Shown: one piece after another, positions 48,481 to 64,000 of the stretch
How the letters are laid out: each line of letters opens with the position of its first letter
Position numbering within the stretch: position 1 is the stretch's first letter
DNA from: Alphaproteobacteria bacterium MarineAlpha5_Bin12
GTDB taxonomy: Bacteria > Pseudomonadota > Alphaproteobacteria > HIMB59 > GCA-002718135
Length of the DNA: 64,000 bases
Assembly (NCBI GenBank): GCA_002937855.1
Contig: PTKS01000005.1
Location: 64,230-128,229, forward strand
Reading direction: 5' to 3'
Notes under the pieces: generated by a model
What the model saw: only the letters and a program-made list of their open reading frames with translations
The model's database searches: none
What the model was told of the DNA's origin: nothing
Position numbers and translations under genes: made by a program

Positions 48481-48585
48481 ACTTCTATTTCATTTCAACA
48501 TTACTCTTGGTTGGCGGTAGGATAATCTTGATGCAATACTTAGTAGTTTAAAAATTCTTTTTCAAATTCAAGTGTAAATCTGAAT

Positions 48586-48897
48586 TTATACTCCTGCGTT
48601 AAATTTAATTATTGTCATAATGTAAGTTATTAAAGTAACAAGAAAAATTAGAGGCATTATATTTTGTCGTTGTATCATCAATTCAAAGGTTTTAAGAATT
48701 GATATTCTAGTCATAATAATGTGTAGAATTATTCTAGCCACAAGAAGATAAAAATAACATTCAAGTAATAGACTTGGTTTAAGGGGATTAAATTTTCTCC
48801 ATCTTCTATAAGCAAGTATAACATAAAATTTGTATACTTTTTCAATCCATGGTAAATTTTTTTTATCTTGTTTTATTCTTTTTAATTTTGTTGTCAT
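48586..48897 (-). CDS. Hypothetical membrane protein, last gene of the minus-strand island operon
   Basis: 103 aa. Basic N-terminus followed by two to three hydrophobic segments. 4-nt overlap with the upstream DUF2130-type gene. No family recognised. Confidence 0.4.
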   Translation of the reverse strand: MTTKLKRIKQDKKNLPWIEKVYKFYVILAYRRWRKFNPLKPSLLLECYFYLLVARIILHIIMTRISILKTFELMIQRQNIMPLIFLVTLITYIMTIIKFNAGV

Positions 48898-50009: not shown

Positions 50010-50010
50010 T

Positions 50011-50115
50011 TTAAAAGAACCATTTCATTAAGAAGTAAATTAAAACAACAAAACCAATGATAGAAATTATAAACGACAATGCACTACCAAAAAGACCAAA
50101 TATGAAGTTTAACAT
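50011..50115 (-). CDS. Unlisted 34-aa single-pass TM peptide (MLNFIFGLFGSALSFIISIIGFVVLIYFLMKWFF)
   Basis: Own translation. Its ATG overlaps the upstream stop as TAATG (50117-50113 on the minus strand). Its TAA stop (50013-50011) sits 1 nt before the DUF2130 ATG (50009). The ORF exactly fills the apparent 105-nt gap. Confidence 0.5.
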   Translation of the reverse strand: MLNFIFGLFGSALSFIISIIGFVVLIYFLMKWFF

Positions 50116-51068
50116 TATAATTCCTCTTGCATTTTTTTAGAGAAACAACTGAAATGAATAATAGTTTCATCTAACATAAGTATTGTGGCACAAATATCTT
50201 TATTATTAATTGTAAATAATTGACCCAGGCCAGAATTTTTACACTGTTTGGCAATAGAATTATTTGCATTAAAAATAATATTATTTGCATCTTTTATTGT
50301 TGGTATTAAATTATCTCTTTTTCTATTTTCCATTTCATCTAATGCATAACTTTTAAGTATTTGTGGATATAGTGATTGGAAAATATTTTTATTTGAAAAT
50401 AATTCAAAACCTAGAATATTTTTACCTATTGCAAAAATAACACCTATTGCATCTTCAGGCATTGTAAGATGCTTAAGATAATTTTCCATTAATAGTTCAT
50501 TATTTTTATAGAGATCTTGCATACTTTCACTTGAAGAGTAAGTATCAAAAGAATTAAATTTTTTATTTATTTGTTCCCATGTTTGTTCCTGATCTGCTGC
50601 TTCATTATAGTTTGAAGAAATATCTTCATCTATATTTTTTTGCATTTTTTCCATTTTTGCAAATCTACCTTTTGCAAACATAGAAGAATTTCGTGAAGCA
50701 AATTGTCTAGATGTTCTACTCCATCTACCTTTTTCACTGCAAAGAACATTTAGTTTCATTTTTGTTATTCCAGGAATAATAGAAGATACTGTTGCAATTC
50801 TATTTTGCTTTAATTCAAAACCAGCTATTGTTTGACCATCAATGATAAAAATTGGAGTAGTATGAAAATTTTCAACCTCAACTTCAGGTACATATCCTTC
50901 ATCACTAATTTCAGTAATTTTTAAATTATTTTCATTTAAAGCTTTTGTAAAATGAGTAATATTTTGTTTAATATTTTCACCTATAATGGGGAAAACACTC
51001 AAGTTTTTATAGGTTTTTAAAGTACCTATTGAAATTTTTTCAAGTGTATTGTTATTTTTTTTCATCAT
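50115..51068 (-). CDS. DUF6569/ARPP-1-like protein, first gene of the minus-strand island operon
   Basis: 317 aa. The N-terminal pattern NLSVFPI...F(T)KALNENNLKITEISDEGYVPEVEVEN....PIFIIDGQTIAGFELKQNR......IP....KLNVLCSEKGRWS matches my memory of this family's conserved core (L.VFPL, V.E.v.N, ll.dGE.l.GakQnR, v.C.E.gRW). Confidence 0.6.
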   Translation of the reverse strand: MMKKNNNTLEKISIGTLKTYKNLSVFPIIGENIKQNITHFTKALNENNLKITEISDEGYVPEVEVENFHTTPIFIIDGQTIAGFELKQNRIATVSSIIPGITKMKLNVLCSEKGRWSRTSRQFASRNSSMFAKGRFAKMEKMQKNIDEDISSNYNEAADQEQTWEQINKKFNSFDTYSSSESMQDLYKNNELLMENYLKHLTMPEDAIGVIFAIGKNILGFELFSNKNIFQSLYPQILKSYALDEMENRKRDNLIPTIKDANNIIFNANNSIAKQCKNSGLGQLFTINNKDICATILMLDETIIHFSCFSKKMQEEL

Positions 51069-51140
51069 TAAGTATTTTCTGTTAATCTTAACAATAAAAA
51101 TTTTTTTTTGATATTCTAGTGGTAGAAAGAAATTTTTTAT

Positions 51141-51165
51141 TTATTATTATTATTATTATTATTAT
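51141..51165. repeat. Perfect trinucleotide microsatellite (TTA/ATT), about 8 units
   Basis: Direct reading: ttattattattattattattattat, ending at the ATG (51164) of the ATPase gene. It lies inside the 95-nt divergent intergenic region. Confidence 0.9.
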
Positions 51166-53416
51166 GATTGAGAAATTTCAAATAAGTAATTTTAAAGGAT
51201 TTAATGAACCTTTATCTTTAGATATTGCACCTATTACACTTATTTTTGGACCTAATAGCGTTGGAAAATCTTCAATTATTGAAGGTTTGCAAATGATAAA
51301 ACACAGTGGTCCAAATGATCTACAAACATATCTAGAAAATAGACTTGATCTTGGAAGACCAGATGAAATTCTCTCCAGGCAAAATAAAAGCATTAATCCA
51401 AACATTACGTATTCATTTTCTTTTAATTATGCAGGTTTGAATAAACCAAAAGGACCACTTCTTAATAATCTTGAAAGTATTGGAATTAAGAAAAATTTTA
51501 ATCTTACAAAAGATAATATTTATGTGAATAATAAAATTTCTATATTATTTAATAAAAGATTATTTTTTTCACTTAAACTGGGATTCAAAACTAACAAACC
51601 TGAGGAGGTTGAAAAATTAAATCAATTAGAGGGTAAAATAGATTTAATTGATTTAGTACAAATTACTGACAGAATTCCAGAAAACGATCCTTTTTGGAGT
51701 ACATCGCAGCAAGCAGTTTTCACTATAGACACAATTAGTGATAATGATGAGTACTGGGATGATATTTTAAATTTTTTAACTAGAAAAAACATAAGTACAG
51801 AAATATCTAATAAAATTGACTTTGTTATTAATGAAAGAAATCAGAATTCAAGATCTAAGGAGATTACAAAAAGTGAATTAGAGACTTTAATCAAACAATA
51901 TAATGAAAATATAAATTTATTAAAAAAAGGAAATAAAGAAATAATAAATTTTATAAATAAAGTGATTATTGAAAAAGAGTTTAAAGATTTACCTTATAAA
52001 AAATATTTATTAAATTATTTAATCAATAATAAAAAATATGTAAAAAGTGATAAAATTATTTCTCTATTAAAAGAAAATGAAGATACAGTTCCTAATTTAA
52101 ATAAAAAAAGTAATCTTTGGGAGATGGTGACAAATGATTATATTGATAATCTAAATTTAATTAATCAAAAGGAAAAAAATGAGAAAGAAATATTAAAATA
52201 TCTAATCGAAGATATTAACAACAAACTTATCGCAGATGTTGGACTTTCATTAATAAGAGGCGTGACAATAAAAGGTGATAAGGAATATAAATTTGACATT
52301 AATGACGAGTTAATCAACGCTCAATTACAAGCTTCTTTAGATGAAGTAAAAAAAAATGTTGAGAAAATAGATGATATTAATTATTCTATTTCAACTGAAA
52401 ATAGTGATACTTTTAAAGATTTTTCTATAAAAAAACTTAGAGACATTAATATTTTAATTAGTGCATGGTCAAGAACATTACAATTAAGTCAAGAATTAGG
52501 TCCTACGGGTAGAAAAGAAATTAAATCTTCAATCATAAAAGATATTAAACGTAATCTTATTATTGAAGTGGAAGTCAAAGGTTCGGAAAAACAGAGAATT
52601 TTTTATTATAGAAAAAAAAATACACTAATTGATCTATTTACATTAGCAATTGAATCAAATAATCGTAAAGTTGATAATCTATTTCCCAATCTAGAAGAAA
52701 TTATTGATCATTGTGATTCTTTGATAGAAGAAAATCTTGGCAATTTTACTTTTGTCCCATGTTTTCGAAGTTATGAGAGAGTTTATAGATCTACAAGAAA
52801 ATCAATATCAGCAAATCTTGACATAAGTACTTCTACTGCAGATCTTGTCGAAACGTTATCAAGAGATAAGGAATTACTAAAAAAACTTAATGATTGGTTA
52901 AAACAATCAACGCTTAATTCTGAAATTGTTATAGAAGAAGGATCAGATTCAAGAATCATGTATGTCATAGAAGGAGAGAATAAAGTTAAAATAAATATTG
53001 CAGATGCTGGCTCAGGTATTCGAAATTTAATTCCTATCATTGCTGTTATCATTAACGCTAACAGAAAAATTCATCCCTATAGACGAAAAGGAATGGAGAC
53101 AAAGCCTATAATTGCCTTAGAAGAACCAGAGGTTAATTTACATCCCAGACTTCAAATTGATTTAGCAAGCTTTGTTGCAAATTTTAGTAATAAAAGAGAT
53201 TTTATTATTGAAACACATAGTGAGCTGATGATGAGAAAAATTCAACAACTTATAAGAGATAAGGAATCAAATCTTACCTATGAAGATGTTAAGGTTTATT
53301 GTGTTAGAAAAAACCAGGAAGGACATTATGTTGATGAAATAAGAATTGATAGCAATGGAAAGTTTCTTGATGAATGGCCTCATGGTTATTTTAATGAAAG
53401 AATTGAACTTCTGTAA
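51164..53416 (+). CDS. ABC/SMC-like (AAA_15/AAA_21-type) ATPase with very long inter-motif insert and DUF3696-like C-terminus
   Basis: The N-terminus FQISNFKGF...LIFGPNSVGKSS (Walker A at about 51248) is typical when translation starts at ATG 51164. Walker B/D-loop IALEEPEVNLHP lies at about 53111, with H-loop ETHS. The tail G.FLDEWPHGYFNER is DUF3696-like. About 610 aa of K/E/N-rich sequence separate Walker A from Walker B. The track start GTG 51119 is probably upstream of the real start. Confidence 0.8.
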   Translation: MIEKFQISNFKGFNEPLSLDIAPITLIFGPNSVGKSSIIEGLQMIKHSGPNDLQTYLENRLDLGRPDEILSRQNKSINPNITYSFSFNYAGLNKPKGPLLNNLESIGIKKNFNLTKDNIYVNNKISILFNKRLFFSLKLGFKTNKPEEVEKLNQLEGKIDLIDLVQITDRIPENDPFWSTSQQAVFTIDTISDNDEYWDDILNFLTRKNISTEISNKIDFVINERNQNSRSKEITKSELETLIKQYNENINLLKKGNKEIINFINKVIIEKEFKDLPYKKYLLNYLINNKKYVKSDKIISLLKENEDTVPNLNKKSNLWEMVTNDYIDNLNLINQKEKNEKEILKYLIEDINNKLIADVGLSLIRGVTIKGDKEYKFDINDELINAQLQASLDEVKKNVEKIDDINYSISTENSDTFKDFSIKKLRDINILISAWSRTLQLSQELGPTGRKEIKSSIIKDIKRNLIIEVEVKGSEKQRIFYYRKKNTLIDLFTLAIESNNRKVDNLFPNLEEIIDHCDSLIEENLGNFTFVPCFRSYERVYRSTRKSISANLDISTSTADLVETLSRDKELLKKLNDWLKQSTLNSEIVIEEGSDSRIMYVIEGENKVKINIADAGSGIRNLIPIIAVIINANRKIHPYRRKGMETKPIIALEEPEVNLHPRLQIDLASFVANFSNKRDFIIETHSELMMRKIQQLIRDKESNLTYEDVKVYCVRKNQEGHYVDEIRIDSNGKFLDEWPHGYFNERIELL

Positions 53417-53418
53417 AG

Positions 53419-54579
53419 ATGATTTATAATTATGCACTTACACATTATTGTTGTGAATCAGCAGTATTTGAGGAAAAAACATTTCAAAACTTAGTTAATC
53501 TTTTCCAAAAAACAAGGGATGAAAATATAATTTTAATTATAGATAAAAACAAATATTTAATTGATTGTTTGTTAAAAGGTTTAAAAAGTTATTATAAAAC
53601 TAGTTCTGATGAATATTCATATTTTACTGAAATTTTATTGACTTTAGATGATAAGAATAAAATTTATAGACATGATTTTATTTATGATGAAAATAATGTA
53701 AAAGAATTTATTGAATCAATTAAGAGTTCAGGAATTATTATAGATGCGATAATTGTAGACAAAGAAGAAGAAAATACATTTAAAAACGCAATACCTATTG
53801 AAAAGTTTTCTCTAGAACATCAAAATGATAAAGAAAGAATTACAGTAAATAAAAATGGTATCAACCTTATAGATCATGAAATCAATTCACTTGATACAAT
53901 TTATCAAAGAATTGTCTGGGATTCTGTTGTTTTTAAGTATTATGATTATAATTTAGGTAATGGAACATTTAAAACTGAAGAAATTCGAAATCTTGATTTA
54001 ATAAAAAACAACTCAGAGAATGAATCTTCCAAATGGAAAATTTTTAATAATGATATTACATCGCACAAATTAAGACAAATTAATAAATTTAAATTAGGAT
54101 TTCAAAATCTTATAAAAGCTATAAAATCCATAAGTAAAAAAATTAAAAAAGAAAAAAATGTCTTAATTGAGGTATTCACACCTCAACCTTTAAAAAATTT
54201 AAAATCACTAAATGCTGAAGATAAAATTAAAAATATGCAACAAAATCTTTTAATGCTTCAGCTTTTAGACGAAAAGATATGTAGCGAGATTCAAGAGGAA
54301 AATATTAGTTTAAAAATTTATTTTTATGACTCTTTATTAGATGGAAAAAGTAAATATGGTAGCGCCGAACATAATCGTCTGTTTTTTTCCTTGTCTTCCA
54401 ATCAAATTGATGTTGCAAAAGGCCTTGATATATATGACTTAAAAACAAAAGAAATTCAGCAAGGAAAATGGCGTTTTTTAGGTTCTAAGGAAGATACACA
54501 ACAGGACATAAGCAACAGAAACCCATTAGATATAAAGAAATACAAAGAAAATATTGAACATTATTTGGGAAATTTATAA
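53419..54579 (+). CDS. Hypothetical protein, tightly coupled partner of the ATPase (no recognisable domain)
   Basis: 386 aa ORF starting 2 nt after the ATPase stop. I found no nuclease, Toprim, HNH, TIR, Sir2 or TM motif. Coding status is supported by length and coupling only. Confidence 0.5.
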   Translation: MIYNYALTHYCCESAVFEEKTFQNLVNLFQKTRDENIILIIDKNKYLIDCLLKGLKSYYKTSSDEYSYFTEILLTLDDKNKIYRHDFIYDENNVKEFIESIKSSGIIIDAIIVDKEEENTFKNAIPIEKFSLEHQNDKERITVNKNGINLIDHEINSLDTIYQRIVWDSVVFKYYDYNLGNGTFKTEEIRNLDLIKNNSENESSKWKIFNNDITSHKLRQINKFKLGFQNLIKAIKSISKKIKKEKNVLIEVFTPQPLKNLKSLNAEDKIKNMQQNLLMLQLLDEKICSEIQEENISLKIYFYDSLLDGKSKYGSAEHNRLFFSLSSNQIDVAKGLDIYDLKTKEIQQGKWRFLGSKEDTQQDISNRNPLDIKKYKENIEHYLGNL

Positions 54580-54585
54580 ATTACA

Positions 54586-54615
54586 CTTGAATCTTAATTA
54601 GTATTTGCTATATTT
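54586..54615 (+). promoter_or_regulatory. Candidate promoter upstream of the sigma gene: CTTGAAT - N16 - TGCTATATT
   Basis: Direct reading. CTTGAA lies at 54586-54591 and TG-C-TATATT at 54606-54614, about 25 nt upstream of ATG 54639. It fits either an extended -10 sigma-70 promoter or a sigma-32-type CTTGAA/CTAT element. Confidence 0.35.
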
Positions 54616-54638
54616 AATTATAGGCAAAGCAGCCTGAA

Positions 54639-55457
54639 ATGTATAATTCAATAGCGGGCCAGCTGCGGGTCCCAGAGCCTCTTAAAGATGAACTTGGAAA
54701 GAAATCCAAGGAACCTCTATTATCATATCAAGAAGAGATCGATTTATTCAATAAATATAGATCTTATAATGATAAAAAAAGTTACGAGAGAATATTTTTT
54801 TCTCATATAAGGCTAGTCAATAAATTTGCTAAATTATTTGCAAAATCTAATCCTGAGCTATTTTATGAATTACAAAGTGAAGGTTTTAAGGGGTTAGCAA
54901 TAGCTATAAAAAAATTTGATATTTCAAAATCTAGACTCTGTACATATGCTTCTTATTGGATCCTTCATTCTATTGATACATTTTTTGTCCAAAATAACTT
55001 TGGTAATATTCATCTAGGAAAAAGCTTTACAGAAAAAAAAGTTTTTTATTTGTTAAAAAAATCTTTTATTGAACCAGATAAAATCAAAGAAGAAGATTTA
55101 ATAAAAATTGCTAAAGAAAATAAATTAAGTGTGGCAAAAATTAAAGATATAGTCGCACTAATTTCATACAATCATTTAAATGCAGAAGATGTATCGGTGA
55201 TTGATGATAGACCTAATCAACTTGATAATATAATTACAAAAGAATCATTTAACATTAATTTAAAAATTTTTAAAAAAAGAGTATCTGAGTTAAACAAGAG
55301 AGATAAAAGAATATTTGAGAAAAAACACTTTTTAAATAAAACATATAAAGAAATAGCCAAAGAAGAGGGTATTTCTTTTCAGCGAGTTAGTCAGATAGAT
55401 AATAGAAGTATTGATAACCTTAAATCACAACTCAAAAACTGTTATGAGGCTGCTTAA
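54639..55457 (+). CDS. Sigma-70 family RNA polymerase sigma factor, divergent RpoH (sigma-32)-like
   Basis: 272 aa, collinear with RpoH. Region 2 is IRLVNKFAK...ELQSEGFKGLAIAIKKFD...YASYWILHSI. An RpoH-box-like segment is GKSFTEKKVFYLLKK. Region 4.2 HTH is TYKEIAKEEGISFQRVSQIDNRSIDNLK. Confidence 0.75.
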   Translation: MYNSIAGQLRVPEPLKDELGKKSKEPLLSYQEEIDLFNKYRSYNDKKSYERIFFSHIRLVNKFAKLFAKSNPELFYELQSEGFKGLAIAIKKFDISKSRLCTYASYWILHSIDTFFVQNNFGNIHLGKSFTEKKVFYLLKKSFIEPDKIKEEDLIKIAKENKLSVAKIKDIVALISYNHLNAEDVSVIDDRPNQLDNIITKESFNINLKIFKKRVSELNKRDKRIFEKKHFLNKTYKEIAKEEGISFQRVSQIDNRSIDNLKSQLKNCYEAA

Positions 55458-55459
55458 TA

Positions 55460-55470
55460 TGCTATATAAT
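55460..55470 (+). promoter_or_regulatory. Candidate -10 element upstream of the TerB-GHKL operon: TGCTATATAAT
   Basis: It shares the 8-mer TGCTATAT with the sigma-gene upstream region at nearly identical distance from the ATG (34 vs 33 nt). It contains a perfect TATAAT at 55465-55470. The AT-rich background makes chance -10 matches common. Confidence 0.3.
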
Positions 55471-55493
55471 TCTATTAAAAAAACGGAAAAAAA

Positions 55494-55865
55494 ATGGATA
55501 ATCAAAACACTACAAATGAATTCAAAATACGAATTCTTATTTTACTTGCCATTGCTGATAAAGACTTTCATAAAGATGAGGATAAGATGATTAAGTCTTT
55601 ACTAAAGAAACGTAATGTTGATATGCAAAATTATGAAACAATTAAAAATGAAATTTTCAATTCAGAAGATAATTTTGATAATTTATGTAGAGATTCTTTA
55701 AAAAAAATTAATAATGAAGATGATCAACAAGATTTATTAAAAATTCTTTTTTTATTATCAATGGCTGATCTAATTCTTCATGAAGATGAACTTCGCTTCA
55801 TTGAGCTTTGTGCTGTTGAATGGGGTATATATGGAAACAATTTAAAAGAAATGATTAATAATTAG
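55494..55865 (+). CDS. TerB-like small helical protein
   Basis: 123 aa. Two repeats of the hydrophobic-ADxxxHxDE pattern (LLAIADKDFHKDEDKMI and LLSMADLILHEDELRFI), as in TerB/DjlA-N type domains. Its stop lies 2 nt before the GHKL gene. Confidence 0.5.
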   Translation: MDNQNTTNEFKIRILILLAIADKDFHKDEDKMIKSLLKKRNVDMQNYETIKNEIFNSEDNFDNLCRDSLKKINNEDDQQDLLKILFLLSMADLILHEDELRFIELCAVEWGIYGNNLKEMINN

Positions 55866-55867
55866 TT

Positions 55868-57178
55868 ATGAATATAGAATTAATTCCTAGACCAAGTAGC
55901 ATGATCATTGCATTGAGATCATTTGGATATACACCTGAATCAGCTATTGCTGATATTATTGATAATTCAATTGCAGCAAATGCAAAAAATATTGATGTTA
56001 CAACATATGATGGCGGGGATAATAAAAATAACAATTATGTTTCAATATGTGATGACGGAAAAGGATTAAATGAAAAAGAATTAATTGAAAAAGCAATGCC
56101 TTGGGGGGCAAAGGATGAGCCAAGAGAATATTGCGATCTTGGAAAATTTGGATTTGGATTGAAATCTGCATCATTATCTCAATGTAAAAAATTAACTGTT
56201 ATTTCAAAAGGAAGTGAAGGAAAAATCAATTTAAAAAAATGGGATGTAGATCATGTTCAAAAAACAGATAAATGGGAAATAACTGATGAAATTACAGATG
56301 ATTTAAAACCACACATAAAAAAAATTGACCATAAACAAACAGGAACTTTAGTCTTGTGGCAAAATTTAGATAAACTTTATGAAGCCGATACTTACAATAA
56401 AAAATTTCAACACAGAATAATGAAGCGTGTCCAAAGGTTAGCTGAAAAACATATATCAATGATTTTTCATAACTTCGCTGATAATATAAATTTTACTTTA
56501 CAAGATGGCAAATTTCCCGTTGTAGCTTGGGACCCTTTTCACACTAATAATATTCAAACAATTGCAACGCCTTTAGAAACATTAGAATACAAAGATAGTA
56601 CAATTTCCATTATGTCTTTTATTCTTCCAGAAGAAAAATTCTTTGAAGATGAACAATATCATGGACCAACAGGTGATTGGAATGACAGACAAGGAATATA
56701 TATTTATAGAAAGGAAAGATTAATTGTGCCAGGAGGATGGCATAACATAGAATTAAGAAATAGACCTATATTAAGAAGAGAAAAATATAACCGTTTAAGA
56801 ATATTAGTTAATTATGATGGCAAAAATGATAATGATTGGAGACTAGATGTTAGAAAAAATAGTGTAATTATTCCTGGAGCTATAAAATACAAACTTAGTC
56901 AAATTGTTGAAGAACAATTAGAAAAATTACAAAAAAAGAATTTTAAATCAACACCCGTTATTAAATCTGGTGAAATTACTCCTTGGCTTATTCGAAATAA
57001 TTATGGAAAATTAAGTGCTAAAATAGACAGGAGCAATTTATTAGTTAAAAAGATTATGGATACTAATAAATTCAATAAAGATGAATTTGAAAATCTTTTA
57101 AAAATTTTAGAAAAAACTATCCCATTAGAAAATATTGATTTTAATAATTCTAGTGAGAAACTAATCCAAGAAAATTAA
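55868..57178 (+). CDS. GHKL (HATPase_c_3, MORC/paraMORC-like) ATPase
   Basis: 436 aa. N-box AIADIIDNSIAANA, G1 box ICDDGKGLNEKEL, G2 box GKFGFGLKSAS. Confidence 0.8.
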   Translation: MNIELIPRPSSMIIALRSFGYTPESAIADIIDNSIAANAKNIDVTTYDGGDNKNNNYVSICDDGKGLNEKELIEKAMPWGAKDEPREYCDLGKFGFGLKSASLSQCKKLTVISKGSEGKINLKKWDVDHVQKTDKWEITDEITDDLKPHIKKIDHKQTGTLVLWQNLDKLYEADTYNKKFQHRIMKRVQRLAEKHISMIFHNFADNINFTLQDGKFPVVAWDPFHTNNIQTIATPLETLEYKDSTISIMSFILPEEKFFEDEQYHGPTGDWNDRQGIYIYRKERLIVPGGWHNIELRNRPILRREKYNRLRILVNYDGKNDNDWRLDVRKNSVIIPGAIKYKLSQIVEEQLEKLQKKNFKSTPVIKSGEITPWLIRNNYGKLSAKIDRSNLLVKKIMDTNKFNKDEFENLLKILEKTIPLENIDFNNSSEKLIQEN

Positions 57179-57195
57179 GATATGGTAAAAATATA

Positions 57196-60141
57196 ATGAG
57201 TGCAGATGATTATAGATCAGCAAGACAGGCTATAATAAATATTATTAAACCAGATAATATAGAGGAAAATAAAGTTCCTACTGAGCAAGAAGCTGAAAAA
57301 CTAATTGATCAAACAATTGATAATATTTTCAATTTACAACCTCGATGGAAAGAAACTGTCGATAGAAAAATACTCCTAAAAGATTTGTTGCAACAAATGA
57401 CCGTTTTATTTCCTGATAAAGAAGTTATTTTTAAAAAAAGTGAAGGTAGTGATCATAAAGAATGGTTTGAAGATAAATGGAAAGAAGGTAAAATTAAATG
57501 GAATTATTATAAGAGATACCAAGAATATCTTGAATATTATTCAGACATGCCACCTTTAACAATTTCGAAATTGGATAGATTAACTACTAAAATTATTGAA
57601 CAAATTGAAGATCCAGAAAGAGACGATACATCATGGGATATAAGAGGATCGGTTATAGGTCAGGTTCAATCTGGTAAAACAGCAAACTATATAGGTTTAA
57701 TTAATAAGGCTCTAGATGCTGGCTATAAAAGAATTATTATTTTATGTGGACTTAACAATGACTTGAGATCGCAAACTCAACAAAGAATAGAAGAGGGGGT
57801 TACAGGACGAGCTTATTCTCAATCTGCTGGTTTACAGAACTTTAAAGTAGGGGTTGGTAACATTAATAATTTTTCTGATATTGATGGAAAAGTTCAACTT
57901 TGTACCACAAGGGACGATAACGGTGATTTCAATACAACAAGAGCAAGATCATTTCAACCTTCAGATGACACCCCTGTTATTCTAATAATTAAAAAAAATG
58001 TATCTGTTCTTGAAAACGTTCTTTTGTGGATTCTCAAATATGAAAGCCAAAATACTTGGCATGAAGAAAAAGATCCTTGGGAGTGGAGACAAAGACTAAA
58101 AAAAGATATTGAATCAATTGAAATTGACAATCGCAAAACAAAAGTCCCTCGTGTCAAAAACAGACCTGTTCTTTTGATAGATGATGAATGTGATCAAGCA
58201 TCTATTGATACAAATCTTGATACTGACATGTTACAAGGTGAACCAGATCCTGAACATGACCCAACATTAACGAATAAGTTAATAAGAAGAATTCTTGATG
58301 CTTACGATAAATCTGTTTATGTTGGTTATACAGCTACGCCATATGCCAATGTTTTTATTGATCCAAGACTAAAATCAAAACAAGCTGGAAAGGATATCTT
58401 TCCAGAAGATTTTATAATTAACCTTCCTGCACCAAGTAGTTATATTGGTCCTGCGCAAATTTTTTCAGATATAGAAAAAAAATCTAACGTGATTAATAGT
58501 ATTTCAGATTATTTAGATGAAGGTGAAGATCCAAATGATAGAGCTGCATCAGGATGGATGCCTCCAAGGCATGATATTAATCATATACCACAATATAAAA
58601 ACCAAAATGAATTGCCAACTTCTCTCAAAGAAGCAATAATATCTTTTCTCATATCTTGTGCAGTAAGAAAATTAAGGGGTTATGATAAGGGAAATAGTAT
58701 GCTTGTTCATGTTTCAAGATTTGTATCTGTTTCAGAAAGAGCTGGAAACCAAATTCAAGAATTTATTAATGATCTAGAGTCTATTAATGTAGGAAATTTC
58801 TCTTATGAAAGTTTAATTAAAGAAATTTGGGATTCTAAATTTACTAATCATATAAATGATAATTTTAATTTTGATAAAAACAAAATTAAATTTGATGATG
58901 TTTATTTAATTATTCAGCAATCATTACAAACTAATAAAACTGTAGTAGAACTTGTTAATGGATCTGCTTTAAGCAAAAGTGAATACGACAAATCATTAAA
59001 AGCAAATAAAAATATTATTGCTGTAGGTGGACAAAGATTATCAAGAGGTCTTACGTTGAAGAGCCTTATGATTAGTTATTTTCTAAGAACAGCCAGAAGA
59101 CCACTTACTGATACAATGACACAAATGGGTCGATGGTTTGGATATAGACCTAACTATAGTGATTTGTGTAAACTTTACATAACTGATGAATTAGAGCAAA
59201 ACTTCAGAGACTTTGCGATTGCAGACTATGAGTTTAGAAATAAAATTGAAGAAATGAATGAGCAAGAGAGAACTCCTAAGAATTATCAATTAATGGTGCA
59301 AAGAGATCCAAACTATGCTTTATCTTCAAGAAACAAGCTTCACTATACAAGTGTGGTAAGACTGGATTTTAGTGATTATCATGGACAAACAATTGTTCTC
59401 CATAAGGATAATTCTTCGGAAGCTAAAAATAATAGAGATAGTGTAAGAGATTTAGTTCTCTCTTTAAATAAACCAGATCAAAATAGAGAAAATAAAAATA
59501 ATTGTTATTTATGGAAAAAAACTGAAAGTAAAAAAATTATTAAATTTTTACAGAAATATAAAACACACGAAAATAATACAAAAATTCATACTGAAAGTTT
59601 TATTGATTATATTCAAAGGATGAATAATTATGGTGAGTTAAAATTTTGGTCCGTTGGTATAATTTCCAAGACATCAACTGAAGATAAAGTAAGATTAATA
59701 CATAATGATTTAGTTAACTTTCCTGTTAATTGTATGGAAAGATCACCAAATAAAAAAAATAAAAAAACTGATGATAAAAATACACATACTATAGGAATTT
59801 TGGATCAAGAAATTGATGAATCCTTTGATTTAAATAATGCAGAATATAATGCTGCTATAGAAAAATGGGAATTGGAAGATGGTAGAAGATTAAATAAATC
59901 AAAAAGATTTTATTACAGATGGGCAAGAGGACGTGCATATTTAGATAACTATTATCAAGATATAGAAAACGATAATTATCATAGAGGTCAATTATTAATT
60001 TATCCTATTATAAATCCAAAAGAACCAAAAAAAGATCAATTACCTATGATAGGAATAACTATAACTTTTCCTGGATTAAGTACTAATGATAGCAGAGAAG
60101 TTATTATGTCAAACTTTCAAGCAGAAAGAATACATGAATAA
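57196..60141 (+). CDS. Z1 domain protein (SF2 helicase-like NTPase)
   Basis: 981 aa. Walker A GQVQSGKTANY and Walker B LLIDDECDQAS. The Z1 signature is VGGQRLSRGLTLKSLMISYFLR....DTMTQMGRWFGYRPNYSDLCKLY. Confidence 0.85.
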   Translation: MSADDYRSARQAIINIIKPDNIEENKVPTEQEAEKLIDQTIDNIFNLQPRWKETVDRKILLKDLLQQMTVLFPDKEVIFKKSEGSDHKEWFEDKWKEGKIKWNYYKRYQEYLEYYSDMPPLTISKLDRLTTKIIEQIEDPERDDTSWDIRGSVIGQVQSGKTANYIGLINKALDAGYKRIIILCGLNNDLRSQTQQRIEEGVTGRAYSQSAGLQNFKVGVGNINNFSDIDGKVQLCTTRDDNGDFNTTRARSFQPSDDTPVILIIKKNVSVLENVLLWILKYESQNTWHEEKDPWEWRQRLKKDIESIEIDNRKTKVPRVKNRPVLLIDDECDQASIDTNLDTDMLQGEPDPEHDPTLTNKLIRRILDAYDKSVYVGYTATPYANVFIDPRLKSKQAGKDIFPEDFIINLPAPSSYIGPAQIFSDIEKKSNVINSISDYLDEGEDPNDRAASGWMPPRHDINHIPQYKNQNELPTSLKEAIISFLISCAVRKLRGYDKGNSMLVHVSRFVSVSERAGNQIQEFINDLESINVGNFSYESLIKEIWDSKFTNHINDNFNFDKNKIKFDDVYLIIQQSLQTNKTVVELVNGSALSKSEYDKSLKANKNIIAVGGQRLSRGLTLKSLMISYFLRTARRPLTDTMTQMGRWFGYRPNYSDLCKLYITDELEQNFRDFAIADYEFRNKIEEMNEQERTPKNYQLMVQRDPNYALSSRNKLHYTSVVRLDFSDYHGQTIVLHKDNSSEAKNNRDSVRDLVLSLNKPDQNRENKNNCYLWKKTESKKIIKFLQKYKTHENNTKIHTESFIDYIQRMNNYGELKFWSVGIISKTSTEDKVRLIHNDLVNFPVNCMERSPNKKNKKTDDKNTHTIGILDQEIDESFDLNNAEYNAAIEKWELEDGRRLNKSKRFYYRWARGRAYLDNYYQDIENDNYHRGQLLIYPIINPKEPKKDQLPMIGITITFPGLSTNDSREVIMSNFQAERIHE

Positions 60142-61147
60142 TGAAAGTACTGATATTTTTAAAGATACTTTAGATTCAGTTAAAACTTCTATTAAACAAT
60201 CAGGATTGATAGCTAAACTACTTCCTTTAGAAAATAACAATAGGATATTTGCAGCTTATAAATTACCAGAAAAACAAATTAGCCTTATTGCAGAAGTTCC
60301 AACTAAATTTGTTAAATTTGAAAAGCAATTTGAATCAAAAGGATTCAGCGTTACAAATAAAAAAAAAGATACCAATAATGATGTTACGCAAGTTATTATT
60401 TCTTTGATTGATAATAATTATAAGGATGTTTTTTTTGAAATTACTGAGCTTTTTATTAAAAAAATTAAAAATATAAAAGATGACAGAGATTTTTATAATA
60501 TCCTTATTGAAAGAATAGAAATATATTCAAATTTTTTTGATAAACATTCAAAACAAGGATTACTTATTAATGCACAACAAGGCCTTTATGCTGAATTAGA
60601 TATTATGGAAAATTTTTTCATCAAATATTTTAACATACCTCTTACTCTTGAAATGTGGCAAGCCCCTCAAAGTGGGTTACATGATTTTACTTATAAGGGT
60701 GTTTCTATGGAAGTAAAATCAACTCATAAATTTCCAGCTCAAGACGTAAGTATTTCAAGCGAATTTCAACTAAATGACAAAAGAGTTTCTAATTTATATC
60801 TTGCTGTACTAGAGGTTAAGCGAGGATCAATTGGAGGAGAAAGTATAAGAGAAAAAATTGAAAAAATTAGAGAATTAATTGCGTCTCAAAACTCAGAATT
60901 AAATACTAAATTCAATGATCTTCTTAATAAATATGGTTATTATGATGCTCATTCACACAACTATTATGTAAGTTTTAAAACTAATTTAGTTCATTATTAC
61001 AAAGTTGTGGAAAATTTTCCACGAATACTACCTGACAGAATTTTAGATGGTGTTAAAAGTATTAGATATAAAATAGATTTAAATAAATGTGTAAATTTTA
61101 TCACTGAAGGAAGTTCTATTAAACAAAATTTTAAAGATGTCGTATAA
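60134..61147 (+). CDS. PD-(D/E)XK motif protein (restriction-endonuclease fold)
   Basis: GLHDF...VSMEVKST gives the D...E-x-K motif. The ATG at 60134 overlaps the Z1 stop (ATGAATAA), and the track ORF start at 60086 is an alternative. The position between Z1 and AIPR is as in the known neighbourhood. Confidence 0.7.
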   Translation: MNNESTDIFKDTLDSVKTSIKQSGLIAKLLPLENNNRIFAAYKLPEKQISLIAEVPTKFVKFEKQFESKGFSVTNKKKDTNNDVTQVIISLIDNNYKDVFFEITELFIKKIKNIKDDRDFYNILIERIEIYSNFFDKHSKQGLLINAQQGLYAELDIMENFFIKYFNIPLTLEMWQAPQSGLHDFTYKGVSMEVKSTHKFPAQDVSISSEFQLNDKRVSNLYLAVLEVKRGSIGGESIREKIEKIRELIASQNSELNTKFNDLLNKYGYYDAHSHNYYVSFKTNLVHYYKVVENFPRILPDRILDGVKSIRYKIDLNKCVNFITEGSSIKQNFKDVV

Positions 61148-63167
61148 TCAAGAACTTAAAAATTTTTCTTATAAAATTCATAGTAGTTCAATTGAACTTG
61201 ATACTTTTAAAGAAAATGGATTTTCACATGCTTGTTGTCAAATACTTTCTGATTCAGGAGTTATAGAAAACTATGAAATTTTACATTTTGAAAAAAAAAT
61301 TTACAACACTGAAATTAAAATTAATGGATATGGACTTGATGATGAAAAAGAAAATTTAGATTTATTTGTATGTCATTTTGAAGGATCAATTAATCCAAAA
61401 AAAATTGAATCATCTAAATTAAAAACTGCAGGAAAAAAAATATCCAATTTTTTTAAAGAATCTCTTAAAGGATTATCTAATAATCTTCCAAAGAATTCTG
61501 ATCCTTATTCTGTAGCAAGATTAATTAAAGATATAGAAAAAAAACTTAACAGAGTAAGGATATTTATTTTTACAGATGGAACTAGTGATATTAAAACCAT
61601 TATCACTGATAAAGTTTCGGGTATTGATGTTACTATTGAATTTTTTGATCTTGGAAAATTATATGAATTGTCGGTTCTTGGAAGTGTAACTGATAATATA
61701 AAAGTAAAATTTGATACAAATATAGACAAGATTGAATGTATTAAGTCTTCTACTACACCAAAAGACTTAGAAAGTTATCTTGCTATTATCCCTGGAGAAA
61801 CTTTATATAGACTTTATGAAGCTTGGGGATCTCAATTAATGGAACTAAATGTAAGATCATTTCTTCAATCAACAGGAAAAGTAAATAAAGGTATTAGAAC
61901 AACACTTCTAGAAGAACCAAACATGTTTTTTTCTTACAATAATGGAATAGCTGCAACCGCAGAAAAAATTAAATTTTCAATAGGGGAAGATGGCAGGCAA
62001 TATATAAATGAAATAATTGGATTTCAGATAGTAAATGGAGGGCAAACAACAGCAAGTATTCATAGATCAAAAAAAGTAGATGGTATTGATTTGAGTGAAA
62101 TTTCAGTACCAACAAAAATTTCTGTTATAAAAAAAGAAGATATACGTAAGGTGGTTCCTTTAATTTCTCGTTATTCAAATAGTCAGAATGCTGTTAAACA
62201 ATCTGATTTTCATTCTGATAATGTTTATCACAAAAAAATTGATGAAATAAGTAAAAAAATTTTTATCCCTGGGGAAAGTGGTAGATGGTTTTTTGAAAGA
62301 AAATCTGGTGAATATCAAAATGAAAAATTTCGACATAGTGCTAATTCAGATAGTAAAAATAGATTTAATAAACTCATTCCAACATTTAGAAAAATTTCAA
62401 AGGAAGATTTGGCTAAATACATTAATTGTTGGGAAGGATTGCCTTATGTTGTCTGTACCGGAGTGCAGAAAAATTTTATTCATTTTATGAATAACCATGC
62501 TGTTGAAGCAGTTAAAGAAAAGATAATTGATAATGATTATTTCAAAGATATCATTTCTCAATCAATAATTTTTAGAAGTGTTGAAAAAATAATTAAGTCA
62601 TCTGATGTACCAGCATATAGATCTCAAGTTTGTACTTATACAGTTTCATTACTTTCTAATTTATCTAGAAAAAATTTTAATCTTGCAGCAGTTTGGCAGG
62701 ATCAACAAATTTCTAATGAATTAAATGAAATGTTAATTTTATGGGTTAATAAAGTATATGATAAACTTCGAAAAAGTGCAGACTCTAAAAATAAAAATCC
62801 CTCTGAATGGTTTAAAAAAATGGAATGTTGGAAAGAATTAAAAAATCAAAATTTTTCAATCTCAGGTAATAATGTTCCTATTGAACTAAAAGGTTCAAAA
62901 AAAGTTATTAAAACGAAAAAATTTATTGTTGATGATGATTATAAAGAAAATATGAGAAAATGTAAAAGTGTCTCTCCTAATGGGTGGCTTAAAATAGCTG
63001 AATTCATTCAAGATGATCCTGACTTAAGCAAAGAATTTCATGGCATGTGTTTAACTCTTAAAGATATGGCTAATGATGATTGGTATGAAGACCCAACTCC
63101 TCATATTGCTGAAGAAGCTTCTGCTATAATTGATTTAGCAGTTGATCAAGGTATAATTAGAATTTAA
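61137..63167 (+). CDS. AIPR (abortive infection phage resistance) family protein
   Basis: 676 aa. The core VRSFLQ.TGKVNKGIRTTL...P..FFSYNNGIAATA...IVNGGQTTASI is the AIPR signature. 11-nt overlap with the preceding gene. Confidence 0.85.
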   Translation: MSYNQELKNFSYKIHSSSIELDTFKENGFSHACCQILSDSGVIENYEILHFEKKIYNTEIKINGYGLDDEKENLDLFVCHFEGSINPKKIESSKLKTAGKKISNFFKESLKGLSNNLPKNSDPYSVARLIKDIEKKLNRVRIFIFTDGTSDIKTIITDKVSGIDVTIEFFDLGKLYELSVLGSVTDNIKVKFDTNIDKIECIKSSTTPKDLESYLAIIPGETLYRLYEAWGSQLMELNVRSFLQSTGKVNKGIRTTLLEEPNMFFSYNNGIAATAEKIKFSIGEDGRQYINEIIGFQIVNGGQTTASIHRSKKVDGIDLSEISVPTKISVIKKEDIRKVVPLISRYSNSQNAVKQSDFHSDNVYHKKIDEISKKIFIPGESGRWFFERKSGEYQNEKFRHSANSDSKNRFNKLIPTFRKISKEDLAKYINCWEGLPYVVCTGVQKNFIHFMNNHAVEAVKEKIIDNDYFKDIISQSIIFRSVEKIIKSSDVPAYRSQVCTYTVSLLSNLSRKNFNLAAVWQDQQISNELNEMLILWVNKVYDKLRKSADSKNKNPSEWFKKMECWKELKNQNFSISGNNVPIELKGSKKVIKTKKFIVDDDYKENMRKCKSVSPNGWLKIAEFIQDDPDLSKEFHGMCLTLKDMANDDWYEDPTPHIAEEASAIIDLAVDQGIIRI

Positions 63168-63199
63168 TAATTTAAACAAAAAGAAAATTATAATTTCAT

Positions 63200-64000
63200 A
63201 TGTATATTAAAATCGTAGATCTATTTGCTGGAATAGGGGGTATAAGATTAGGAGTCGAAAATGCTGCAAAAAAACTTAAGATAAAAACAGAAACAGTTTT
63301 TGCATGTGATATCAATGAAAAAGCAAGATCAGTCTATAGAGAAAATTTTATAAAACCCGATATTCAGGGCGACATAAGATCAATTGATAATTATAAAAAA
63401 ACTATTGGCAAACATGATCTTTTGCTAGCAGGTTTTCCTTGCCCGCCTTTTTCTCTTGCCGGTGTTGTTAAGAGAAAATTTTTAAACAAAAAACATGGAT
63501 TTGCAGATCGTAAAGGAAACTTATTTCCAGATATTATTAAAGTTTTGGAACAAACAAAACCAAAAGCATTTCTTTTAGAAAATGTTAGTCATCTTAAGAG
63601 TCATAATAAGGGTAAAACTTTTGCTAGAATATTAAAAGCTCTCGAAGATGTAAAGTATAAAACCATTAAAACAGAAATTTTAAACGCTAAAGATTTTGGT
63701 TTACCTCAATCAAGAAAACGTGTTTTTATTATAGGATTTAGAAAAAAAACTCTATTTAATTTTCCTTCATCAATAAATTCAAAAACCTCTGTAAATGATA
63801 TTTTACAAAAGAAAGTGGATGACAAGTATTTTATAACAAAAAAATTATGGAAGAGTCACAAAGAAAGAAAAGAAAGAAACAAAAGAAGAGGGGTAGGATT
63901 TGGCTATAGTCTTGTGAAAAATACTGACAGTTATACTCGCACATTAAGTGCTAGATATTACAAGGATGGCAGCGAGATACTTCTTAAAGTAAAAGGAAGT
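63200..64000 (+). CDS. dcm: DNA (cytosine-5)-methyltransferase, 3'-truncated by the window edge
   Basis: Own translation from ATG 63200, open to the window end (267 codons). Motif I is IVDLFAGIGGIRLG, motif IV GFPCPPFSLAG, motif VI LLENV, motif VIII QSRKRVFIIG, then TLSARYYKDGSE. Confidence 0.9.
   Translation, partial: MYIKIVDLFAGIGGIRLGVENAAKKLKIKTETVFACDINEKARSVYRENFIKPDIQGDIRSIDNYKKTIGKHDLLLAGFPCPPFSLAGVVKRKFLNKKHGFADRKGNLFPDIIKVLEQTKPKAFLLENVSHLKSHNKGKTFARILKALEDVKYKTIKTEILNAKDFGLPQSRKRVFIIGFRKKTLFNFPSSINSKTSVNDILQKKVDDKYFITKKLWKSHKERKERNKRRGVGFGYSLVKNTDSYTRTLSARYYKDGSEILLKVKGS

What the first reader, a model, noticed from the sequence alone, without database searches (positions are those of the whole stretch)
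55494..64000. TerB-capped paraMORC(GHKL)-Z1-PD-(D/E)XK-AIPR-Dcm cluster: a poorly characterised multi-component R-M/Abi-like system
Six co-directional genes are joined by gaps of 2 to 32 nt or by overlaps (ATGAATAA at 60134-60141, and an 11-nt overlap at 61137-61147). The association of a C5-methyltransferase with a GHKL ATPase, a Z1 SF2-like NTPase, a PD-(D/E)XK protein and an AIPR protein is a recurrent neighbourhood in comparative genomics of defence islands and of prokaryotic MORC-like ATPases. I am not aware of a mechanistic characterisation. The local novelty is the small TerB-like protein whose stop lies 2 nt before the GHKL start. No vsr is visible within the window, though it could lie downstream. 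TerB domains have been linked computationally to DNA-processing and stress systems, so it may be a regulatory or sensing cap.
Basis: partly seen in the sequence, partly recalled or inferred. Interest (0 to 1): 0.65.

Follow-up and report, generated by a model that had tools for sequence, protein, structure and literature searches.

The report
TerB-led variant of Mza defence operon
The cluster is a distant relative of the already known and experimentally validated Mza anti-phage system with its usual cytosine methyltransferase, but it belongs to a rare marine sub-type that carries an extra small TerB-like protein directly in front of the ATPase gene and a short sigma factor in place of the usual large one.

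Summary

It is short and lacks ankyrin repeats, and its Mza core does not group with the ankyrin-sigma clade.

The TerB-like ORF is real. It passes Pfam's threshold, its best fold match is the TerB-family structure 2H5N, and dN/dS is 0.04-0.21. It belongs to a tiny family: 28 clusters among 1.84 billion representatives. In all 12 contexts seen, the next gene is an MzaB-like ATPase, usually overlapping or 0-4 nt away. Five of these show no sigma gene where the upstream DNA was readable.

I therefore read it as an MzaB-coupled accessory subunit, not a sigma partner. No vsr lies downstream in this strain.

Verdict: a new variant of a known kind, of moderate interest.

The parts
54585..54613 (+). 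Promoter-like element upstream of the sigma gene: ACTTGAAT (-35-like), a 16-nt spacer, then CTATAT
   Evidence: CTTGAA lies 53-55 nt before the sigma ATG in all 6 lineages compared, including cassettes whose proteins are only 26-30% identical. The motif is not over-represented in the window. Function is inferred from conservation only.
54639..55457 (+). Short sigma-70-family factor (272 aa) in the position of MzaA
   Evidence: Pfam Sigma70_r4 scores 28.8 bits; r2 is weaker. NCBIfam TIGR02937 scores 68.6 against a cut-off of 42.9. The best named match is RpoH-type, far below cut-off, and no MzaA row appears among the 25 best of 35 families listed. There is no PADLOC hit even at E<=10. hhalign aligns it only to regions 2-4 of canonical MzaA at 16% identity. 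It is conserved upstream of the TerB-like gene in 7 related loci.
55494..55865 (+). TerB-like protein (123 aa), the gene immediately 5' of MzaB
   Evidence: Pfam TerB E=8e-7, 29.8 bits against 24.4. D22, E29, D92, E99 and W110 are invariant across 25 family members. Profile against PDB: 2H5N E=0.003. The AF2 model has pLDDT 83, and its top Foldseek hit is 2H5N at TM about 0.6. dN/dS is 0.04-0.21. An MzaB-like gene follows in every context seen.
55868..57178 (+). MzaB-like GHKL (MutL/MORC-type) ATPase, 436 aa, with a short C-terminal tail
   Evidence: PADLOC MzaB 1.4e-50. NCBIfam NF041932 scores 241 bits, below the equivalog cut-off of 850. The N-box and DxGxG/G2 motifs are visible in the sequence. 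The tail after the conserved Pro419 is 17 aa, against a median of 72 aa in non-TerB loci.
57196..60141 (+). [not shown]
60134..61147 (+). MzaD-like DUF4420 PD-(D/E)XK nuclease, 337 aa
   Evidence: Pfam DUF4420 5.8e-56. PADLOC MzaD 4e-16. NCBIfam NF041934 scores 125 bits. A D...EVK motif is present. E. coli MzaD is reported to cut phage DNA.
61137..63167 (+). MzaE-like AIPR protein, 676 aa
   Evidence: Pfam AIPR_N plus AIPR. PADLOC MzaE 2.4e-94. NCBIfam NF041935 scores 437 bits.
63200..64000 (+). C5 cytosine DNA methyltransferase (Dcm), cut by the window end; the complete protein is 322 aa
   Evidence: Pfam DNA_methylase 2.4e-66 for the fragment and 1.1e-88 for the full protein from the identical contig L088. 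Motifs I, IV (PC), VI (ENV), VIII and X are present in the L088 translation.
51119..54579 (+). AAA_15 ATPase (765 aa) plus an unannotated 386-aa partner; co-inherited upstream neighbours whose membership in the system is uncertain
   Evidence: AAA_15/AAA_21 by Pfam; PADLOC PDC-M55A 1e-37, NsnB and AriA-like. They sit in the same place in all 7 sigma-carrying loci and diverge together with the Mza genes. They are absent from 79 other Mza loci and from the TerB-MzaB loci that show no sigma gene.

Best explanation
The cluster is an Mza-type anti-phage operon, with an MzaB-C-D-E core and the Dcm methyltransferase that almost always accompanies this core. It belongs to a rare, so far marine-only sub-lineage.

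Shown by the data:
- The four core genes are distant relatives of MzaB-E.
- Dcm is the constant partner, while Vsr and an EcoRII-C nuclease come and go among relatives.
- The 123-aa protein is a TerB-superfamily member under purifying selection.
- Its small family is found directly 5' of an MzaB-like gene in every context examined, with or without a sigma gene.
- The window's clade also carries a short sigma factor where canonical systems carry the ankyrin-sigma70 protein MzaA, and this clade does not group with the ankyrin-sigma clade.

Inferred:
- Dcm marks host DNA.
- The TerB-like protein is made together with MzaB and acts as its accessory subunit. It probably gates or localises the ATPase/nuclease machine through the site formed by its two invariant Asp-x6-Glu pairs.
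- The sigma factor drives or tunes transcription from the conserved CTTGAA promoter-like element in front of its own gene.
For: Core identity. Published validation and MzaD nuclease activity without growth arrest.

Survey of 80 diverse GTDB loci: 63 have the complete BCDE set, and 60 of those have Dcm in the locus. Vsr is present in 46 of 80.

TerB assignment. Purifying selection.

Family size and fusions: 28 clusters among 1.84 billion representatives. The family includes an N-terminal fusion to a UvrD-type helicase and fusions to Top1-type zinc ribbons.

Linkage to MzaB: 7 sigma-carrying loci plus 5 of 5 informative distant members (L096, L097, L099, L103, L104/105). The junctions are overlaps or gaps of 0-4 nt in most cases. 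In L099 the order is Dcm, TerB-like, MzaB. In L097 and L104 the TerB-like gene is the first gene after a divergent intergenic region.

TerB-linked MzaBs separate from all others in 99 of 100 neighbour-joining bootstraps.

Recombination pattern: between L003 and L001 the TerB-like protein (83%) tracks MzaB (95%) rather than sigma (62%).
Against: No physical interaction, activity or phenotype was tested. The role of the TerB-like protein is inferred from gene order alone.

Tight coupling to MzaB is not universal: the gap is 32 nt in L093 and 14 nt in L095.

The Dcm gene has been exchanged independently of the Mza genes: window against L095 is 73% for Dcm but 29-49% for the other cassette genes from AAA_15 to MzaE. 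That fits poorly with a restriction complex tuned to one methylation site.

None of the four core proteins reaches the NCBIfam equivalog cut-offs, so function is extrapolated from distant relatives.

Foldseek E-values for the TerB fold are not significant (0.23). Only the probability, the TM-score and the agreement with the sequence profile support it.

The neighbour-joining grouping of AT-rich marine sequences could be inflated by composition or long branches.
Confidence: 0.6

Rival explanations
1. The sigma factor and the TerB-like protein form a sigma/anti-sigma-like or sensor pair that together replace the ankyrin-sigma70 protein MzaA. The TerB-like protein holds or releases the sigma factor in response to infection and so switches the operon on.
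For: The two genes are adjacent in 7 related loci and occupy the MzaA position. Canonical MzaA has an extra N-terminal protein-binding (ankyrin) domain that the short sigma lacks. A conserved promoter-like motif precedes the sigma gene.
Against: Five more distant TerB-like genes sit directly before MzaB with no sigma gene visible in the upstream DNA that could be read. Junctions with MzaB are tighter than with sigma, where the gap is 29-45 nt and has its own ribosome-binding site. Relatives are fused to a helicase or to DNA-binding zinc ribbons, not to sigma or anti-sigma domains. There is no profile similarity to any part of MzaA.
Confidence: 0.15
2. The TerB-like protein tethers or directs the Mza complex to the inner face of the membrane, or senses a membrane or metal signal there, as proposed for TerB proteins in Shango and Bunzi. 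The complex would then meet phage DNA at its point of entry.
For: TerB domains occur in the validated defence systems Shango (TerB plus ATPase plus helicase) and Bunzi. TerB is reported to be membrane-associated. The acidic pairs of the domain are invariant.
Against: There is no transmembrane segment or signal peptide; the longest hydrophobic run is about 10 residues (sequence). It has no similarity to the PADLOC Shango or Bunzi models, even at E<=10. This explanation does not exclude the accessory-subunit reading; it is one version of it.
Confidence: 0.15
3. The genes are not one system. Dcm is the remnant of an EcoRII-type restriction-modification unit, the sigma factor belongs with the upstream AAA_15 pair, and all of them merely sit next to Mza in a defence island.
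For: Relatives carry EcoRII-C and/or Vsr next to Dcm. The Dcm module is swapped independently. The AAA_15 pair and the sigma gene are always found together in this clade and are absent elsewhere. A putative promoter lies between the AAA_15 pair and the sigma gene.
Against: Dcm accompanies the BCDE core in 60 of 63 complete loci across many phyla and is present in every variant of this cassette, while EcoRII-C and Vsr are optional. The gene order from AAA_15 to Dcm is kept down to 26-47% identity at a site whose flanking genes are 93-99% identical (L003 against L095). That argues for one co-inherited unit.
Confidence: 0.1

Closest known systems
Mza (mzaABCDE) anti-phage system, attributed to Gao et al. 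2020; PADLOC MzaB-E models and NCBIfam NF041931-NF041935
   Different: All four core proteins score far below the NCBIfam equivalog cut-offs. The upstream sigma is 272 aa with no ankyrin repeats and is RpoH-like rather than RpoD-like. An extra TerB-like gene lies between the sigma gene and MzaB. MzaB lacks most of the roughly 72-aa C-terminal tail. The TerB-linked MzaBs form a separate branch from the ankyrin-sigma clade.
Dcm/Vsr-linked paraMORC - SFII helicase - RE-fold nuclease - AIPR operons (Iyer, Abhiman and Aravind 2008, PMC2292703)
   Same: It shows the general neighbourhood and the proposed logic: a GHKL ATPase working with a helicase and a nuclease in a methylase-linked restriction system.
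   Different: That paper does not contain the word 'sigma' (0 occurrences) or 'TerB' (0 occurrences). I did not test which paraMORC family MzaB belongs to.
[not shown]
   Same: It shares a core of cytosine methyltransferase, a PD-(D/E)XK protein and a restriction-modification-associated protein, plus AIPR and a MORC-type ATPase. That paper notes that the sigma factor mzaA is present in only a few such systems.
   Different: No TerB-like component is described there.
Shango (TerB-like protein plus ATPase plus DEAD/DEAH helicase)
   Same: A small TerB-domain protein is encoded at the head of an operon with an ATPase and an SF2-type helicase, and the operon has validated anti-phage activity.
   Different: There is no sequence match to the PADLOC Shango models. 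The ATPase and helicase families differ, and Shango has no nuclease, AIPR or Dcm. The resemblance is an analogy in architecture, not membership.
EcoRII-type Dcm/Vsr restriction-modification module
   Same: Relatives of this cassette carry EcoRII-C plus Dcm, with or without Vsr, after MzaE.
   Different: The window strain has Dcm only, with no nuclease and no Vsr (L088). CCWGG is not depleted in the window: 49 sites against 32 expected.

Membership tests
Mza (mzaABCDE) | MzaB GHKL/MutL-type ATPase | tested here: met
   PADLOC MzaB 1.4e-50 over 7-425. NCBIfam NF041932 scores 241 bits, a family-level match only, against an equivalog cut-off of 850.
[not shown]
   PADLOC MzaC 1.7e-145. NCBIfam NF041933 scores 603 bits against a cut-off of 1500.
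Mza (mzaABCDE) | MzaD DUF4420 PD-(D/E)XK protein | tested here: met
   Pfam DUF4420 5.8e-56. PADLOC MzaD 4e-16. NCBIfam scores 125 bits against a cut-off of 420.
Mza (mzaABCDE) | MzaE AIPR protein | tested here: met
   PADLOC MzaE 2.4e-94. NCBIfam scores 437 bits against a cut-off of 1050.
Mza (mzaABCDE) | MzaA: ankyrin-repeat plus RpoD-like sigma-70 protein (about 500-900 aa) directly upstream of MzaB | tested here: not met
   The upstream sigma is 272 aa with no ankyrin repeats. It has no PADLOC hit at E<=10, and its best NCBIfam match is RpoH-type. Canonical MzaA proteins from 8 loci show ankyrin repeats (6 of the 8) plus sigma regions (all 8), and the 5 of these scanned against NCBIfam match NF041931. 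The gene directly before MzaB here is the TerB-like gene.
Mza (mzaABCDE) | Protection against phage | not testable with these tools
   Only relatives from Salmonella and E. coli have been tested.
TerB superfamily (PF05099) | Profile match above the curated threshold | tested here: met
   29.8 bits against 24.4. The L006 orthologue scores 29.3 bits. Distant family members score 26.7-45 bits.
TerB superfamily (PF05099) | All-helical TerB fold | tested here: inconclusive
   The AF2 model has pLDDT 83 and seven helices. The top Foldseek PDB hit is the TerB-family structure 2H5N, with probability 0.98 and TM 0.58-0.60, but E=0.23. The first, shallower model found nothing.
TerB superfamily (PF05099) | Two acidic Asp...Glu motifs (recalled from the literature on TerB; not checked against a paper here) | tested here: met
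   D22/E29 and D92/E99 are invariant in 25 family members.
Tellurite-resistance ter operon TerB | Encoded among terZABCDE-type genes | tested here: not met
   The neighbours are a sigma factor and MzaB-E in all contexts. No Ter genes were seen.
Shango | SngA/B/C protein families | tested here: not met
   The TerB-like protein has no PADLOC match at E<=10. The neighbouring ATPase and helicase match Mza models instead.
RpoH (sigma-32) | Equivalog-level match to RpoH | tested here: not met
   TIGR02392 scores 83 bits against a cut-off of 323. NF005143 scores 92 bits against 241. It does qualify as a sigma-70-family protein: TIGR02937 scores 68.6 against 42.9.
Type II EcoRII-like restriction-modification | A cognate restriction endonuclease next to Dcm | tested here: not met
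   There is no nuclease between MzaE and Dcm or after Dcm in this strain. It is present in the relatives L001, L003 and L005.

The most novel reading that the evidence does not exclude
Mza-type systems may have recruited a sigma factor twice independently: the ankyrin-RpoD-like MzaA in one clade, and a short RpoH-like sigma in this marine clade. That would imply that a sigma factor is not just a regulator but a functional part of Mza immunity. For example, it could act as an RNA-polymerase-binding sensor or decoy that detects phage takeover of host transcription. In the marine lineage the TerB-like protein would be the MzaB-bound receiver of that signal. The whole 9-gene cassette (the AAA_15 pair, sigma, TerB-like, MzaBCDE and Dcm) would then be one sigma-controlled, exchangeable immune module in streamlined ocean bacteria.
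Probability: 0.12. Interest if true: 0.75.

Novelty: new variant of a known kind. Interest (0 to 1): 0.45.

Why it matters
Mza is a validated defence system, but its mechanism is largely unknown. In particular, the papers I could read give no explanation of why it carries a sigma factor.

This locus defines a natural variant in which the large ankyrin-sigma protein is replaced by a minimal sigma factor plus a separate small protein that is tied to the ATPase gene. That gives two small, separable handles for dissecting how the MzaB/C/D/E machine is switched on.

It also adds a third defence context for TerB domains, after Shango and Bunzi, again next to an ATPase and an SF2 NTPase. This strengthens the idea that TerB domains are general adaptors of DNA-processing immune complexes.

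Finally, the mosaic identities show whole-cassette and single-module exchange at one chromosomal site in abundant, uncultured marine Alphaproteobacteria.

Tried and rejected
- **Split-off piece of MzaA or of the MzaB tail:** rejected. hhalign probability was 0.05% against MzaA and 0.2% against the MzaB family. The tail-loss correlation is only partial: TerB-linked tails are 5-58 aa against a median of 72.
- **Spurious ORF:** rejected on conservation, dN/dS, a ribosome-binding site and the Pfam match.
- **TerB genes in other Mza loci:** a narrow family HMM found none in 79 diverse loci apart from L006. Pfam TerB was not among the 25 of 27 matched families listed for 75 unclassified upstream ORFs. 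Two single-member families were not displayed, so a weak hit cannot be fully excluded.
- **Collection scans:** the metagenome pattern scan with the TerB-like alignment returned one locus. The viral-contig scan returned none.
- **Methylation-site inference:** CCWGG depletion, tested as a hint to Dcm specificity, was not seen.
- **RNA families:** Rfam found no RNA family at 48000-64000.
- **Promoter motif:** it is not enriched in the window. Its only support is conservation across orthologous loci.
- **Papers:** Gao et al. 2020 and Anantharaman et al. 2012 are not in the held library. Statements about them rest on citing papers or on memory. Searches for newer Mza mechanistic work found only the 2022 preprint.
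Full report
**1. The observation.**
The six co-directional ORFs lie at the stated coordinates. I read every junction in the sequence.
- The TerB-like stop codon and the GHKL start are 2 nt apart.
- The DUF4420 and AIPR genes overlap by 11 nt at 61137-61147.
- The gap before Dcm, which starts at 63200, is 32 nt.

Pfam confirms each domain above its gathering score, including TerB at 29.8 bits against 24.4.

**2. What the core is.**
PADLOC assigns the four middle genes to MzaB (1.4e-50), MzaC (1.7e-145), MzaD (4e-16) and MzaE (2.4e-94). NCBIfam gives the same four names, but all scores are far below the equivalog cut-offs. These are therefore distant relatives, not orthologues, of the reference system.

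Papers held here list mzaABCDE among validated defence systems and attribute it to Gao et al. 2020. A 2022 preprint reports three things for the E. coli system:
- It protects against T4 carrying unmodified or hydroxymethyl cytosine by 10^3- to 10^4-fold.
- It causes no growth arrest.
- Purified MzaD cuts phage DNA.

The neighbourhood itself was described in 2008 as a paraMORC/helicase/nuclease/AIPR restriction-modification system.

**3.
A 272-aa sigma-70-family gene lies at 54639-55457, 36 nt upstream and on the same strand. One paper describes mzaA as a sigma factor.

I fetched 80 diverse MzaB-containing loci from GTDB species representatives and classified their genes.
- 63 loci hold the complete BCDE set, and 60 of those have a Dcm in the locus.
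- 46 of the 80 have Vsr.
- 14 have a large sigma-family protein directly before MzaB.

Eight of those 14 were scanned individually. Six combine N-terminal ankyrin repeats with RpoD-like sigma regions, and the other two (L034, L067) show sigma regions without ankyrin. The five of them scanned against NCBIfam all match the MzaA model NF041931. Three more were recognised from a pooled scan.

The window's sigma is different. It has no ankyrin repeats, its best named match is RpoH-type and far below cut-off, it has no PADLOC hit even at E<=10, and it shares only generic region 2-4 similarity with MzaA.

In neighbour-joining trees the ankyrin-sigma systems form a nearly exclusive clade, and the window's clade is a separate long branch. 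This suggests that the sigma factor was recruited independently in the two groups.

**4. The TerB-like protein is real and belongs to the TerB superfamily.**
The source is a marine metagenome-assembled genome named Alphaproteobacteria bacterium MarineAlpha5_Bin12.

Evidence that it is a real, conserved gene:
- Orthologues of 123-126 aa occur in at least six lineages, down to 31% identity.
- A conserved ribosome-binding site precedes the start codon.
- dN/dS is 0.04-0.21 for the five of six informative pairs; the most divergent pair (33% identity, saturated dS) gives 0.54.

Evidence for the TerB assignment:
- In a 25-member alignment reaching 20% identity, the invariant residues are D22, E29, I72, D92, E99 and W110, that is, two Asp-x6-Glu pairs.
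- A profile of that alignment finds the TerB-family structures 2H5N (E=0.003, full length), 2OU3 (0.019) and 2JXU (0.4) among its top four PDB hits.
- The aligned 2H5N segment is itself a Pfam TerB member.
- An AlphaFold2 model built from the same alignment has pLDDT 83 and pTM 0.77. Its best Foldseek match is 2H5N, with probability 0.98 and TM 0.58-0.60 over the whole length, although E is only 0.23.

**5. The key result: the TerB-like family is tied to MzaB.**
A profile search of 1.84 billion representative proteins found only 28 clusters at E<=0.001. Nearly all are standalone proteins of 111-125 aa.

Genomic context could be read for five of the distant members: L096, L097/98, L099, L103 and L104/105. 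In all five the next gene is an MzaB-like GHKL ATPase (phmmer 1e-9 to 1e-54 against the window's MzaB). The junction is an overlap or a gap of 0-4 nt. Where the contig continues, MzaC follows.

None of the five shows a sigma gene in the upstream DNA that could be read:
- L099 has the C-terminal end of a Dcm gene directly upstream.
- L097 and L104 have a divergent intergenic region.
- In L096, L103 and L105 only about 130-460 nt of upstream sequence is available.

Together with the seven sigma-carrying loci (window, L093, L003/L005, L001, L006, L095), every context seen places the TerB-like gene immediately 5' of MzaB.

Further observations point the same way.
- TerB-linked MzaBs separate from the other 79 in 99 of 100 bootstraps.
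- They tend to lack the conserved C-terminal tail, with 5-58 aa against a median of 72.
- The few fusion proteins in the family join the TerB-like domain to a UvrD-type helicase, in an operon with further helicases and a Dcm, or to Top1-type zinc ribbons.
- In the survey of 80 GTDB loci the family appears only in L006, so this is a rare sub-type.

**6. The surroundings.**
In the sigma-carrying clade the conserved block is:
- DUF2130 and ARPP-1 on the minus strand;
- an AAA_15 ATPase with a 333-392-aa partner that has no family match;
- the sigma factor;
- the TerB-like protein;
- MzaBCDE;
- optionally Vsr and/or EcoRII-C;
- Dcm.

Per-gene identities are mosaic.
- L003 and L095 share 99% and 93% identity in DUF2130 and ARPP-1, but only 26-54% from AAA_15 to Dcm. 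The nine-gene cassette therefore behaves as a divergent allele at one site.
- The window's Dcm is 73% identical to that of L095, while the cassette genes from AAA_15 to MzaE are 29-49% identical. The methyltransferase has therefore been exchanged on its own.
- Between L003 and L001 identity rises from 42% (the AAA_15 partner) through 62% (sigma) and 83% (TerB-like) to 95% (MzaB). Between L006 and L095 the gradient runs the other way. Recombination breakpoints therefore fall near the sigma/TerB boundary.

A contig identical to the window shows that Dcm (322 aa) is followed by bactofilin and VIT/VWA genes. There is no vsr in this strain.

A CTTGAA motif lies 53-55 nt before the sigma start codon in all six lineages, followed 16-17 nt later by a CTATAT-like hexamer. 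I read this as the promoter of a transcription unit that starts at the sigma gene. The motif is not enriched in the window.

**7. How it most likely works.**
Shown: the identities, the gene order and the linkages described above.

Inferred from the families and from the published E. coli data:
- Dcm methylates host DNA.
- MzaB (a GHKL clamp) and MzaC (an SF2 NTPase) engage unmarked DNA, and MzaD cuts it.
- The role of MzaE is unclear.
- The TerB-like protein is produced with MzaB and acts as its accessory subunit, gating or localising the complex through its conserved acidic site.
- The sigma factor controls expression of the unit.

The independent exchange of Dcm is the main observation that fits poorly with a site-specific restriction model.

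Rivals, in order of weight:
- a sigma/TerB regulatory pair;
- a membrane-tethering or sensing role, as suggested for Shango and Bunzi;
- independent systems lying side by side.

**8. Novelty and score.**
The core is known. The TerB-led sub-lineage, its minimal sigma factor and the tight TerB-MzaB pairing were not described in any paper I could search, but two key papers could not be read.

I rate it a new variant of a known kind, with interest 0.45. It would not astonish a specialist, but it gives a small, testable handle on how Mza is regulated.

Noticed in passing
window 51119-54579 (+): An AAA_15/AAA_21 ATPase (765 aa; PADLOC PDC-M55A 1e-37, NsnB and AriA-like; a DUF3696-like C-terminus) is followed, 2 nt later, by a 386-aa protein with no family match in Pfam, PADLOC or NCBIfam. 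The pair is conserved upstream of the sigma gene in all 7 related loci and is absent from 79 other Mza loci. It may be a separate two-gene defence system or part of the cassette.
   Followed up: partly
window 48586-51068 (-): A 103-aa ORF, a DUF2130 protein (371 aa, with an N-terminal CxxC motif and a coiled coil) and an ARPP-1 protein (317 aa) lie divergent from the cassette. They have no PADLOC match. An ARPP-1 homologue (E=3e-32) paired with RmuC lies in the same relative position next to a distant TerB-MzaB-MzaC locus (L104 2734-4782), so the association recurs.
   Followed up: partly
L003 against L095, L001, L006 and the window (whole cassette): Per-gene identities are mosaic. The flanking DUF2130 and ARPP-1 genes are 93-99% identical, while the nine cassette genes are 26-54% identical. 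This indicates allelic replacement at one site. Gradients in opposite directions in two other pairs indicate recombination near the sigma/TerB boundary.
   Followed up: yes
window 63200-64000; L088 14091-15059; L095 17456-18424: The Dcm of this strain is 73% identical to that of L095 although the cassette genes from AAA_15 to MzaE are 29-49% identical. Vsr and an EcoRII-C nuclease are present or absent in different relatives. The methylation module is exchanged independently of the Mza genes.
   Followed up: partly
window 55458-55493: Directly after the sigma stop codon, an ATGCTATAT(A/T) element (extended -10-like) is well conserved in three lineages, weaker in the L006/L095 lineage and absent in L093. 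An AGGAA-type ribosome-binding site before the TerB-like start is likewise seen in all but L093. This may be an internal promoter that drives TerB-MzaBCDE without the sigma gene.
   Followed up: no
L101 655-10439: A 760-aa fusion of the TerB-like domain to a UvrD/REP helicase heads an operon with a 1018-aa SF2 helicase, an MZB (DUF1998) protein and a NERD helicase. A Dcm lies on the opposite strand. This looks like an undescribed helicase-rich defence-like locus.
   Followed up: no
L095 18442-20932; L001 19441-20178: A SIR2-domain gene lies on the opposite strand after Dcm (directly in L001; after a 151-aa gene in L095), and in L095 a phage-type integrase follows. The downstream flanks differ between lineages: bactofilin in the window, and Sel1/MORN genes in L093. 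This suggests a variable or mobile region.
   Followed up: no
L027, L039, L061, L066, L074, L081 (gene directly upstream of MzaB): Canonical MzaA proteins combine N-terminal ankyrin repeats with a full RpoD-like sigma factor, including region 1.2 and, in some, the non-essential region. Two other loci (L034, L067) have a long sigma factor without ankyrin repeats.
   Followed up: partly
window 41941-41967 (-): A textbook sigma-32-type promoter match (CTTGAAA, 13 nt, CCCCAT) lies antisense inside the + strand ORF 40851-42914. It was not examined further.
   Followed up: no
window 1-64000: CCWGG occurs 49 times against 32.3 +/- 5.6 expected from shuffles. The EcoRII/Dcm-type site is, if anything, enriched rather than avoided.
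   Followed up: no
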